64,000 nucleotides of DNA from Escherichia coli (lineage in GTDB: Bacteria; Pseudomonadota; Gammaproteobacteria; Enterobacterales; Enterobacteriaceae): assembly GCF_050920415.1 (NCBI RefSeq), contig NZ_CP169309.1; one strand, 5' to 3'. Position numbers: made by a program. Shown in pieces: positions 18,015-21,000 of this stretch (positions are counted from its first letter, which is position 1; every line of letters begins with the position of its first letter).

Positions 18015-21000
18015 ATGGATAACGTGTACTTTGTTATCAATCTGGGGCCAGCAAATGCTGGCCTGATTTGTTCTTGAGGGAAGACTATGATGCGCAAAAT
18101 GCTGCTGGCGGCAGCACTTTCAGTGACGGCAATGACCGCTCACGCCGACTACCAGTGCAGCGTCACGCCGCGTGATGATGTGATTGTCAGCCCGCAAACC
18201 GTGCAGGTGAAGGGCGAAAACGGCAATCTGGTGATCACGCCAGACGGCAACGTGATGTATAACGGTAAGCAATATTCCCTGAACGCCGCCCAGCGCGAGC
18301 AGGCGAAGGATTATCAGGCTGAACTGCGTAGTACGCTGCCGTGGATTGATGAAGGCGCGAAAAGCCGCGTCGAGAAAGCCCGTATCGCGCTGGATAAAAT
18401 CATCGTTCAGGAGATGGGCGAAAACAGCAAAATGCGCAGCCGTCTGACCAAACTTGATGCGCAACTGAAAGAGCAGATGAACCGCATTATCGAAACGCGC
18501 AGCGATGGCCTGACGTTCCACTATAAAGCCATTGATCAGGTTCGCGCCGAAGGCCAGCAATTAGTGAATCAGGCAATGGGCGGAATTTTACAGGACAGCA
18601 TTAATGAAATGGGCGCGAAAGCGGTGCTGAAAAGCGGCGGTAACCCATTACAGAACGTGCTGGGAAGCCTGGGGGGGCTGCAATCCTCAATCCAAACCGA
18701 ATGGAAAAAGCAGGAAAAAGATTTCCAACAGTTTGGCAAAGATGTTTGTAGCCGCGTTGTGACTCTGGAAGATAGTCGCAAAGCCCTGGTCGGGAATTTA
18801 AAATAATCCTCTATTTTAAGACGGCATAATACTTTTTTATGCCGTTTAATTCTTCGTTTTGTTACCTGCCTCTAACTTTGTAGATCTCCAAAATATATTC
18901 ACGTTGTAAATTGTTTAACGTCAAATTTCCCATACAAAGCTAAGGGATAATGCGTAGCGTTCACGTAACTGGAGGAATGAAATGGAGTTTTTCAAAAAGA
19001 CGGCACTTGCCGCACTGGTTATGGGTTTTAGTGGTGCAGCATTGGCATTACCCAATATCACCATTTTAGCAACCGGCGGGACCATTGCCGGTGGTGGTGA
19101 CTCCGCAACCAAATCTAACTACACAGCGGGTAAAGTTGGCGTAGAAAATCTGGTTAATGCGGTGCCGCAACTGAAGGACATTGCGAACGTTAAAGGCGAG
19201 CAGGTAGTGAATATCGGCTCCCAGGACATGAACGATAATGTCTGGCTGACACTGGCGAAAAAAATTAACACCGACTGCGATAAAACCGACGGCTTCGTCA
19301 TTACTCACGGTACCGACACGATGGAAGAAACCGCTTACTTCCTCGACCTGACGGTGAAATGCGACAAACCGGTGGTGATGGTCGGCGCAATGCGCCCGTC
19401 CACGTCCATGAGCGCAGACGGTCCATTCAACCTGTATAACGCGGTAGTGACCGCAGCTGATAAAGCCTCCGCCAACCGTGGCGTGCTGGTGGTGATGAAC
19501 GACACTGTTCTGGATGGCCGTGACGTCACCAAAACCAACACCACCGACGTAGCGACCTTCAAGTCTGTTAACTACGGTCCTCTGGGTTACATTCACAACG
19601 GTAAGATTGACTACCAACGTACCCCGGCACGTAAGCATACCAGCGACACGCCGTTCGATGTCTCTAAGCTGAATGAACTGCCGAAAGTCGGCATCGTTTA
19701 TAACTACGCTAACGCATCCGATCTTCCGGCTAAAGCACTGGTAGATGCGGGCTATGATGGCATCGTCAGCGCTGGTGTGGGTAACGGTAACCTGTATAAA
19801 TCCGTGTTCGACACTCTGGCGACCGCCGCGAAAAACGGCACTGCAGTAGTGCGTTCTTCCCGCGTACCGACGGGCGCTACCACTCAGGATGCCGAAGTGG
19901 ATGATGCGAAATATGGCTTCGTGGCCTCTGGCACGCTGAACCCGCAAAAAGCGCGCGTTCTGCTGCAACTGGCTCTGACGCAAACCAAAGATCCGCAGCA
20001 GATCCAGCAGCTCTTCAATCAGTACTAATCACCTCGCCCCGGTATCGTGCCGGGGCTTTTCACTTCAGACTCACGTCCATTGCCAATTTTTATCACCCTA
20101 ATGATAATCACCGGAATAAATTATTCCGCGCGAGGGTTTTCGGGTGAAAAAGCAATGGATTGTTGGCACGGCGCTGCTTATGTTGATGACTGGTAATGCC
20201 TGGGCAGATGGCGAACCGCCAACTGAAAATATCTTAAAAGATCAATTCAAAAAGCAGTATCACGGCATTCTCAAGCTTGATGCCATCAGCTTAAAAAATC
20301 TTGATGCTAAGGGTAATCAGGCCACCTGGTCAGCGGAAGGCGATGTCTCTTCCAGTGACGATCTCTATACCTGGGTCGGTCAGTTGGCAGATTACGAACT
20401 GCTCGAACAGACCTGGACGAAAGATAAACCGGTAAAATTCTCGGCGATGTTAACCAGTAAAGGAACGCCCGCGTCTGGCTGGTCGGTGAACTTTTACTCT
20501 TTTCAGGCGGCAGCCAGCGATCGTGGGCGGGTGGTCGACGATATCAAAACGAATAATAAATATCTGATCGTGAATAGCGAAGATTTCAATTATCGCTTTA
20601 GTCAGCTTGAATCAGCGTTGAATACCCAGAAGAACTCGATTCCTGCGCTGGAAAAGGAAGTGAAAGCGCTTGATAAGCAAATGGTGGCGGCGCAGAAAGC
20701 AGCGGATGCATATTGGGGAAAAGATGCAAACGGTAAGCAAATGACCCGCGAAGACGCATTTAAAAAAATTCACCAACAGCGTGATGAGTTTAATAAACAG
20801 AACGATAGCGAGGCGTTCGCGGTTAAATATGACAAAGAGGTTTATCAACCGGCGATTGCGGCATGTCATAAACAGAGTGCAGAGTGTTATGAAGTGCCGA
20901 TTCAGCAGAAGCGAGATTTCGATATCAACGAACAACGGCGACAGACTTTTCTGCAATCACAAAAACTTAGCCGTAAATTGCAGGATGACTGGATAACGCT

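What the first reader, a model, noticed from the sequence alone, without database searches (positions are those of the whole stretch)
18860..18951. ansB promoter with FNR-like and CRP-like sites at class II / class I spacing
TTGTT-N4-GTCAA is centred 41.5 bp upstream of a plausible start site defined by the GATAAT -10 element, and TGTTA-N6-TCTAA is centred a further 50 bp upstream. This matches the known anaerobic/cAMP co-dependence of asparaginase II. It is a consistency check rather than a novelty.
Basis: partly seen in the sequence, partly recalled or inferred. Interest (0 to 1): 0.2.

Follow-up and report, generated by a model that had tools for sequence, protein, structure and literature searches.

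The report
Known E. coli ansB promoter (FNR + CRP)
This is the well-studied promoter of the E. coli asparaginase II gene, which two sensor proteins (FNR for lack of oxygen, CRP for lack of glucose) bound 50 bp apart switch on; it is ordinary and already known.

Summary
TGTTA-N6-TCTAA (18860-18875), TTGTT-N4-GTCAA (18911-18924) and GATAAT (18946-18951) lie between the yggN terminator and ansB (18982-20028) in an E. coli chromosome. This stretch differs from K-12 MG1655 by one spacer base (18937).

Taken singly, the two motifs are no commoner than chance. The composite arrangement occurs once in the window and in 2 of 200 shuffles. It is also a clear phylogenetic footprint: across 52 Enterobacterales loci the -10 element, the promoter-proximal half-site and their 20-nt spacing are essentially invariant. 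The upstream site is conserved in the Escherichia/Citrobacter/Salmonella clade. No SNP seen in the eight E. coli alleles aligned touches any motif.

Published expression data fit. ansB falls about 9-fold in an MG1655 fnr mutant and about 22-fold in a Shigella fnr mutant.

The FNR-type half-site (TCAA) is specific to Escherichia. All 48 other loci read TCACA, a CRP-type half-site, which matches the known E. coli/Salmonella difference.

One caveat: I could not retrieve the mapped start site, so -41.5/-91.5 rests on geometry and on my recollection of Jennings & Beacham 1993.

Verdict: interpretation supported, already known, low interest.

The parts
18819..18847 (+). Intrinsic terminator of the upstream gene yggN (11-bp stem, 7-nt loop, followed by a T-rich tail). 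It insulates ansB from upstream transcription and marks the upstream edge of the regulatory region.
   Evidence: Terminator scan. The RNA fold gives -14.3 kcal/mol, z = -5.4, with 0 of 200 shuffles folding as well. The yggN ORF is 18087..18806.
18857..18878 (+). Upstream CRP-like site. The 22-mer is tttTGTTAcctgccTCTAActt, with core 18860-18875 and centre 18867.5, inferred to be -91.5. It matches the consensus at 7 of 10 core positions, so it is weak.
   Evidence: Sequence. Both half-sites are conserved (TTTTG-TA and CTCTAA) around a variable centre in 17 genus-level representatives. The majority fraction is 0.83 for the core, against 0.51 immediately upstream. The 56-bp stretch around it is identical in 5398 of 5425 E. 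coli genomes.
18890..18899 (+). A/T-rich inter-site segment AAAATATATT (inferred -69 to -60). It is the likely docking DNA for the C-terminal domains of the RNA polymerase alpha subunit (alpha-CTD) between the two activators. This is an inference.
   Evidence: Partly conserved: ATAT is nearly invariant in the close clade. The role is inferred from the established class II / tandem-activator model and was not tested.
18911..18924 (+). Promoter-proximal FNR-like site TTGTTtaacGTCAA (8 of 10 consensus positions), centre 18917.5, inferred to be -41.5. It overlaps the position where a -35 element would be.
   Evidence: The right half-site T-C-A is invariant in 53 of 53 sequences. Base 18924 is A (FNR-type) in 5 of 5 Escherichia and C (CRP-type TCACA) in 48 of 48 other loci. 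None of the E. coli alleles aligned has a SNP in the 14-bp core.
18946..18951 (+). -10 hexamer GATAAT (5 of 6 consensus positions). There is no recognisable -35 element 16-18 bp upstream and no TG extension.
   Evidence: Essentially invariant across about 20 genera, with majority fraction 0.99. The generic sigma-70 scan finds no complete promoter in 18700-19100, as expected for an activator-dependent promoter.
18959..18959 (+). Inferred transcription start (G), corresponding to MG1655 coordinate 3100751. It may be off by 1-2 nt.
   Evidence: Inferred from the geometry only: 7 nt lie between the -10 hexamer and this base (it is the 8th nt downstream), and it places the sites at -41.5 and -91.5. 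No mapped TSS could be retrieved.
18959..18981 (+). Short 5' leader with Shine-Dalgarno GGAGG at 18971-18975. The stretch TTCACGTAACTGGAG is conserved.
   Evidence: majority fraction 0.85.
18982..20028 (+). ansB coding sequence, periplasmic L-asparaginase II, 348 aa.
   Evidence: (NF008304, 707.9 bits) and the annotation.
20036..20056 (+). ansB intrinsic terminator (9-bp GC-rich stem followed by a T run). It makes ansB monocistronic.

Best explanation
Window 18857-18959 is the native sigma-70 promoter of ansB in an E. coli chromosome. It has a good -10 element (GATAAT) but no -35 element, so RNA polymerase cannot use it unaided. Under anaerobiosis, dimeric [4Fe-4S]-FNR binds TTGTT-N4-GTCAA, centred at about -41.5 (class II position). 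There it substitutes for the -35 contact and touches the RNA polymerase alpha subunit (its C- and N-terminal domains) and sigma. When glucose is absent, cAMP-CRP binds the weak site TGTTA-N6-TCTAA 50 bp further upstream (about -91.5), on nearly the same face of the helix, and contacts the second alpha C-terminal domain, which docks on the A/T-rich DNA between the two activators. Because both sites are sub-consensus, neither activator suffices alone, and expression depends on both. Asparaginase II is therefore made only when oxygen and preferred carbon sources are both lacking. Shown here: the sequence elements, their geometry, their conservation, the identity of the gene, and the identity of the promoter with K-12. 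Taken from the literature: the FNR and CRP dependence of expression. Inferred: the exact +1 and the protein-polymerase contacts.
For: The motifs and spacing were read directly. The composite arrangement occurs once in the window and in 2 of 200 shuffles. No -35 element or complete sigma-70 promoter is detectable. The region is identical to MG1655 except at 18937. The -10 element, the proximal half-site TCA and the ungapped 20-nt spacing between them are conserved in 53 sequences from about 20 genera, and the upstream site is conserved in the Escherichia/Citrobacter/Salmonella clade. Within E. coli, the SNPs seen in the alleles aligned lie only at 18902, 18925, 18928, 18934 and 18937, all outside the cores and the -10 element. 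The CRP-site region is identical in 5398 of 5425 genomes. For ansB expression, the MG1655 fnr-/WT ratio is 0.107 (PMC3688515 supplement). In Shigella flexneri the anaerobic log2FC is +3.03 and the fnr-mutant log2FC is -4.49 (PMC4229854 supplement). [quoted passage not shown] From my own knowledge, not verified here: those papers and Scott, Busby & Beacham 1995 place FNR at -41.5 and CRP at -91.5.
Against: Myers et al. 2013 found no FNR ChIP-seq peak upstream of ansB in glucose-grown anaerobic MG1655 and put ansB in their Category 6, 'regulated but no peak'. They attribute this to growth conditions, since CRP is inactive in glucose. Each motif alone is statistically unremarkable. The CRP-like site has 3 core mismatches, whereas the CRP sites of the galP-type and nupG-type promoters in the same window have 0 and 1.
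Confidence: 0.9

Rival explanations
1. The proximal site in this strain is bound by CRP and not by FNR, giving a CRP-CRP tandem promoter of the kind that Salmonella and most Enterobacterales appear to have. On this view the FNR effect on ansB is indirect.
For: 48 of 48 non-Escherichia loci carry a perfect CRP half-site (TCACA) at this position. A Salmonella regulon table lists ansB under crp only (PMC11000858). No FNR ChIP-seq peak was found at ansB in MG1655.
Against: In Escherichia the bases that distinguish the two site types are FNR-type in both half-sites (T-TG... and ...TCA-A). Read as a CRP site, the 16-mer 18910-18925 has 4 of 10 mismatches, including both outer G:C pairs. ansB expression falls about 9-fold (MG1655) and about 22-fold (Shigella) without fnr. 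The title and citations of Jennings & Beacham 1993 describe direct co-dependent regulation by CRP and FNR.
Confidence: 0.04
2. The two motifs are chance look-alikes. The real control elements lie elsewhere in the 175-bp intergenic region, or act after transcription.
For: The single-motif frequencies equal the chance expectation. The -10 element used to define the spacing was chosen after the fact.
Against: The composite is rare in shuffles, at 2 of 200. The conserved islands coincide with exactly these elements while the flanks diverge. The half-site / variable centre / half-site pattern is that of a dimeric helix-turn-helix protein site. Only about 100 bp lie between the yggN terminator and the -10 element.
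Confidence: 0.03
3. The upstream element is conserved at its non-consensus bases (TTTTG-TA...CTCTAA, never TCACA). It may therefore be recognised by a factor other than, or in addition to, CRP. In Citrobacter-type sequences it reads TTGAT-N4-ATCTC and could be an FNR-like site.
For: The bases that deviate from the CRP consensus are invariant across genera. The FNR-like reading with 2 mismatches was found at that position in most Citrobacter loci.
Against: For E. coli the FNR reading of the upstream site has 5 of 10 mismatches. Published work names CRP as the second activator. Selection for a deliberately weak CRP site would give the same pattern.
Confidence: 0.05

Closest known systems
E. coli K-12 ansB promoter (Jennings & Beacham 1990, 1993; Scott, Busby & Beacham 1995)
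   Same: It is the same locus. The sequence is identical over 18790-19000 except for one base, and the gene order is the same: yggN, terminator, promoter, ansB, terminator, yggM. The FNR and CRP co-dependence is the same, as cited.
   Different: A instead of G at 18937 (inferred -22, in the spacer between the FNR site and the -10 element). This A allele is common among E. coli: several listed strains match the window exactly, and most listed strains differ by one base, which in the aligned K-12 and O26 sequences is G at 18937. No functional difference is expected, but this was not tested.
Salmonella enterica ansB promoter (from my own knowledge it has two CRP sites and no FNR dependence; Jennings, Scott & Beacham 1993)
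   Same: It has the same -10 element, the same spacing, the same upstream TTTTGTTA...TCTAA element, and a half-site at the same proximal position (L022, L023).
   Different: The proximal right half-site is TCACA (CRP-type) in Salmonella and in all 48 non-Escherichia loci, against TCAAA (FNR-type) here.
Tandem-activator (class III) promoters with sites near -41 and -91 to -93, such as the deoP2 and nupG CRP tandems and synthetic CRP/FNR tandem promoters
   Same: One activator sits at the class II position and a second sits about five helical turns upstream. The window's own nupG-type promoter shows two CRP-like sites 50 bp apart.
   Different: ansB uses two different members of the CRP/FNR family as co-dependent activators. 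It does not use two CRP dimers modulated by a repressor such as CytR.

Membership tests
Class II FNR-activated promoter | Inverted repeat matching TTGAT-N4-ATCAA, with T/A (not G/C) at the outer discriminator positions | tested here: met
   TTGTT-N4-GTCAA matches 8 of 10 positions, and both outer positions are FNR-type. By itself this match quality is at the chance level.
Class II FNR-activated promoter | Site centred near -41.5 relative to a mapped transcription start | tested here: inconclusive
   The centre lies 28.5 bp upstream of the first base of the conserved -10 hexamer, which gives -41.5 if +1 is G18959. No mapped TSS could be retrieved.
Class II FNR-activated promoter | FNR-dependent anaerobic induction of the gene | not testable with these tools
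   Literature data only. The MG1655 fnr-/WT ratio is 0.107. In Shigella the values are +3.03 log2 (anaerobic) and -4.49 log2 (fnr mutant). Neither is the strain of the window.
Class II FNR-activated promoter | FNR occupancy of the site in vivo or in vitro | not testable with these tools
   The published ChIP-seq in glucose medium found no peak at ansB. The original footprint and mutagenesis papers are not held.
CRP-activated promoter with an upstream (class I-type / tandem) site | Match to TGTGA-N6-TCACA | tested here: inconclusive
   The match is 7 of 10. Each half-site keeps one of its two critical G:C pairs. This quality occurs at the chance rate, and the known-type CRP sites in the same window match at 9-10 of 10.
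CRP-activated promoter with an upstream (class I-type / tandem) site | Site on the same helical face as class I positions (-61.5, -71.5, -82.5, -92.5) | tested here: met
   The site lies 50 bp upstream of the proximal site, so it is at -91.5 if the proximal site is at -41.5, within 1 bp of -92.5. A minority Escherichia allele has 51 bp. This depends on the inferred +1.
CRP-activated promoter with an upstream (class I-type / tandem) site | Evolutionary constraint on both half-sites with a free central spacer | tested here: met
   TTTTG-TA and CTCTAA are invariant or nearly so in 17 representatives, while the centre and flanks vary.
Sigma-70 promoter | -10 hexamer close to TATAAT and -35 hexamer close to TTGACA at 16-18 bp spacing | tested here: not met
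   The -10 element GATAAT matches 5 of 6 and is conserved. No -35 match is present (AAATTT at 17-bp spacing), and the scan finds no complete promoter. This is the expected state for a class II activator-dependent sigma-70 promoter and is not evidence against a promoter.

The most novel reading that the evidence does not exclude
FNR control of ansB is an innovation specific to Escherichia. The ancestral Enterobacterales promoter carried a CRP-type class II half-site (TCACA, present in 48 of 48 loci from about 20 other genera). A single C-to-A transversion at the discriminator base (window 18924), next to a TTG-type left half-site, re-assigned the proximal site from CRP to FNR. The -10 element, the spacing and the weak upstream CRP site stayed fixed. 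The E. coli/Salmonella contrast was published in the 1990s. As far as I know, the breadth of the pattern and the single-base polarity have not been described.
Probability: 0.4. Interest if true: 0.3.

Novelty: already known. Interest (0 to 1): 0.1.

Why it matters
As a finding it matters little. It confirms that a tool-less reader located a textbook co-dependent promoter to the base, and that the window is ordinary E. coli chromosome. Its modest value is as a calibration case. Both sites are individually indistinguishable from chance matches and become convincing only through geometry, conservation and prior experiments. The comparative result (FNR-type half-site only in Escherichia, CRP-type everywhere else) is a clean natural example of regulatory rewiring by one base within the CRP/FNR family. 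It could be used for teaching or for a simple swap experiment.

Tried and rejected
1. The generic sigma-70 promoter scan over 18700-19100 found nothing. I read this as absence of a -35 element, not absence of a promoter.

2. Single-motif enrichment tests were negative, so I moved to a composite test and phylogenetic footprinting.

3. The literature search for the mapped TSS and site positions failed:
- The original J Bacteriol 1990 paper (PMC208625) and Thomason 2015 (PMC4288677) are not held.
- One search was rejected for its syntax.
- Searches for '91.5/41.5', 'activating region', 'class II', 'class III' and 'ansBp' gave nothing usable. One search was mis-specified and returned muscle co-activation papers.
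- The supplements of Kim 2012, Conway 2014 and Federowicz 2014 have no ansB entry or are not held.
- Latif 2018 S1 Table lists ansB with '3097703, -'. That is the 3' end of the transcription unit for minus-strand genes, not a TSS, so I discarded it.
- 'ansBp2' in PMC5961368 is only listed by name as one of 96 test sequences and gives no start-site information. I believe it is a computationally predicted promoter.

4. I did not build FNR or CRP weight matrices. No curated site collection was available offline, and matrices written from memory would not count as evidence. I used consensus mismatches and the known discriminator positions instead.

5. The 216 E. coli genomes missed by the 56-bp query are probably explained by a two-SNP allele (18902 C>T, 18925 A>T) that breaks megablast seeding. 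They do not indicate loss of the site. The count was not verified directly.

6. The second FNR/CRP-like pair, at 57449/57499, lies inside an ORF and has no -10-like hexamer, so it is chance.

Full report
**Location and identity**

The finding lies in the 175-bp gap between two co-directional ORFs, 18087..18806 (+) and 18982..20028 (+). The downstream ORF is periplasmic L-asparaginase II. It matches the NCBIfam equivalog NF008304 over its full length at 707.9 bits, against a cut-off of 506. The 281-bp stretch around the finding is present in 5425 of 5426 complete E. coli genomes, where the flanking genes are annotated yggN and ansB. The gene order trmB-yggL-yggN-ansB-yggM is that of K-12 MG1655. 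Over 18790-19000 the window differs from MG1655 at a single base, A instead of G at 18937. The window is therefore ordinary E. coli chromosome, and the finding concerns the native ansB regulatory region.

**The observation**

- TGTTAcctgccTCTAA at 18860-18875, centre 18867.5.
- TTGTTtaacGTCAA at 18911-18924, centre 18917.5.
- GATAAT at 18946-18951.

The two centres are exactly 50 bp apart. If the proximal centre is at -41.5, then +1 is G18959 and the -10 hexamer spans -13 to -8. The leader is then 23 nt, with a GGAGG Shine-Dalgarno at 18971-18975. No -35-like hexamer lies 16-18 bp upstream of the -10 element (the 17-bp position reads AAATTT), and there is no TG extension. Accordingly, a generic sigma-70 scan reports no complete promoter anywhere in 18700-19100. 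That is the expected signature of a promoter that depends on an activator at the class II position.

**Is it more than chance?**

Taken singly, it is not. The FNR consensus with up to two mismatches occurs 38 times in the window, against 31.9 +/- 5.4 expected. The CRP consensus with up to three mismatches occurs 212 times, against 218 +/- 15 expected.

The composite is rare. An FNR-like site with a CRP-like site 50 +/- 1 bp upstream and a -10-like hexamer at the observed distance occurs once on both strands of the window, at ansB. It occurs at least once in only 2 of 200 dinucleotide-preserving shuffles of the whole 64 kb. A second FNR/CRP-like pair near 57,500 has no -10-like hexamer and lies inside an ORF.

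The window also contains internal controls. A perfect CRP palindrome (31222-31237) lies upstream of a GalP-type sugar porter, and a one-mismatch site (14144-14159) lies upstream of a NupG-type permease. The ansB CRP-like site is clearly weaker than these.

**Phylogenetic footprint**

A scan of one genome per species returned 80 ansB loci. I aligned 135 nt upstream of the start codon from the window and 52 Enterobacterales loci covering about 20 genera (a 16-sequence version is).

- **-10 element and proximal half-site:** GATAAT is essentially universal, with a majority fraction of 0.99 among 17 genus-level representatives. The promoter-proximal half-site T-C-A (18921-18923) is invariant in 53 of 53 sequences. 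The 20 nt between that half-site and the -10 element align without a gap in any sequence.
- **Upstream site:** it shows the pattern expected of a dimeric helix-turn-helix protein site. Two conserved arms, TTTTG-TA and CTCTAA, flank a variable centre. The majority fraction is 0.83 for the core, 0.51 just upstream, 0.71 between the sites and 0.69 in the promoter spacer.
- **Extent:** the upstream module is shared by Escherichia, Citrobacter, Salmonella, Buttiauxella, Cedecea, Atlantibacter and their relatives. Hafnia, Edwardsiella, Serratia and Yersinia keep the proximal half-site and the -10 element but have a different upstream module.

**Variation within E. coli**

The 56 bp around the CRP-like site are identical in 5398 of 5425 genomes. 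In the eight alleles I aligned, polymorphisms lie at 18902, 18925, 18928, 18934 and 18937. None falls in the CRP core, the 14-bp FNR core or the -10 element. The 216 genomes missed by a 56-bp query around the FNR-like site probably carry the 18902/18925 two-SNP allele, which defeats megablast seeding. I did not verify that count directly.

**Which regulator binds where**

Established knowledge of the CRP/FNR family says the two site types share the core xTGA-N6-TCAx. They differ at the outer base: T/A for FNR and G/C for CRP. At the proximal site, all five Escherichia sequences are FNR-type in both arms (TTGT...TCAA). All 48 other loci have C at the position of 18924, giving TCACA, a perfect CRP half-site.

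This matches what I recall of the published contrast between E. coli (FNR plus CRP) and Salmonella (two CRP dimers), which I could not re-read here. It also agrees with a Salmonella regulon table that lists ansB under crp only, whereas it lists tdcA under both crp and fnr (PMC11000858). Read as a CRP site, the E. coli proximal 16-mer has four mismatches, including both outer G:C pairs. Read as an FNR site, the E. coli upstream element has five mismatches.

**Functional evidence from the literature**

[quoted passage not shown] PMC3998974 and PMC5843318 say the same, citing the 1990 paper.
- In the supplements of PMC3688515, ansB is FNR-activated with an expression ratio of 0.107 (presumably fnr mutant over wild type; I did not read the column header). 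It is placed in the category that lacks an FNR ChIP-seq peak. The authors attribute the missing peak to growth in glucose, where CRP is inactive. That explanation fits co-dependent binding, but it remains the one piece of negative evidence.
- In Shigella flexneri M90T, ansB rises 3.03 log2 units anaerobically and falls 4.49 log2 units in an fnr mutant.

**Mechanism**

The best-supported model is the classical one. The promoter has a -10 element but no -35 element. FNR at about -41.5 supplies the class II contacts. cAMP-CRP bound to a deliberately weak site at about -91.5 recruits the second alpha C-terminal domain, probably docked on the partly conserved AAAATATATT segment at -69 to -60. Because both sites are sub-consensus, expression needs both signals.

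The yggN terminator is at 18819-18847 (-14.3 kcal/mol, z = -5.4), and ansB has its own terminator at 20036-20056. Together they make ansB an insulated monocistronic unit.

The elements, geometry and conservation are shown here. The regulator dependence comes from the literature. The exact +1 and the protein contacts are inferred.

**Limits**

I could not retrieve any mapped transcription start. The original papers are not held. Three genome-wide datasets had no ansB entry or no held supplement. The 'TSS' column of one table turned out to be the 3' end of the transcription unit for minus-strand genes. The -41.5/-91.5 numbering therefore rests on the conserved -10 geometry and on my memory of the published values. 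I did not run weight-matrix scoring because no curated matrices were available.

**Verdict**

This is the already-known ansB promoter. The only mildly new point is the breadth of the pattern: the FNR-type half-site is confined to Escherichia, and a CRP-type half-site is conserved in about 20 other genera.

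Noticed in passing
L089 2611-3960 (E. coli YPE10, NZ_CP041448); target = window 18951-18959: In one E. coli strain an IS4-family element (annotated ISVsa5, with IS10-like ends) is inserted between the ansB -10 hexamer and the inferred +1. It is flanked by a 9-bp duplication, TGCGTAGCG. The insertion separates ansB from its FNR/CRP promoter.
   Followed up: partly
window 18924; L003-L082 at the aligned position: The discriminator base of the proximal half-site is A (TCAA, FNR-type) in 5 of 5 Escherichia sequences. It is C (TCACA, CRP-type) in 48 of 48 other Enterobacterales loci.
   Followed up: yes
L004 and L006, about 115 bp before the ansB ATG: A divergent Escherichia allele (E1V33-type, also in E. 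coli SCPM-O-B-8794) has one extra T after TCTAA, giving 51 bp instead of 50 bp between the site centres. It also has several substitutions between the sites, but none within them.
   Followed up: partly
window 18960-18974: The 5' leader sequence TTCACGTAACTGGAG is conserved well beyond the Shine-Dalgarno across Escherichia, Citrobacter, Buttiauxella and relatives. The reason is unknown; possibilities are a translational element or an sRNA target.
   Followed up: no
window 31222-31237 and 14094-14159: A perfect CRP palindrome, TGTGAAGCAAATCACA, lies upstream of a GalP-type sugar porter (29764..31170, minus strand). Two CRP-like sites with centres 50 bp apart lie upstream of a NupG-type nucleoside permease (12740..14044, minus strand). 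These are presumably the known CRP-dependent promoters and serve as internal positive controls.
   Followed up: partly
window 20036-20108: ansB has its own GC-rich terminator (20036-20056), and yggM has a good sigma-70-like promoter (TTGCCA-17-GATAAT, 20080-20108). Even so, yggM is reported at -2.50 log2 in a Shigella fnr mutant (FRT-seq, PMC4229854 supplement). This could reflect read-through or separate FNR control.
   Followed up: no
window 52703-52745 (-) and 40777-40820 (+); 9275-9350 (-): There are two Rfam ES036 (CssrF) sRNA-family matches just above the gathering score, and a tRNA-Phe(GAA) gene.
   Followed up: no
L030, L032-L034, L038, L042, L045-L047, L057, L074, L075, upstream of ansB: Hafnia, Edwardsiella, Serratia and Yersinia keep GTCACA-N20-GATAAT. 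They replace the upstream TTTTG-TA...TCTAA module with a different conserved block (ATGATACG...) and a CRP-like site about 142 bp before the ATG.
   Followed up: no
PMC5957442 S1 Table: The column described as the transcription start site holds the left (3') end of the transcription unit for minus-strand operons. For example, ansB is listed at 3097703, beyond its stop codon. It cannot be used as a TSS.
   Followed up: partly
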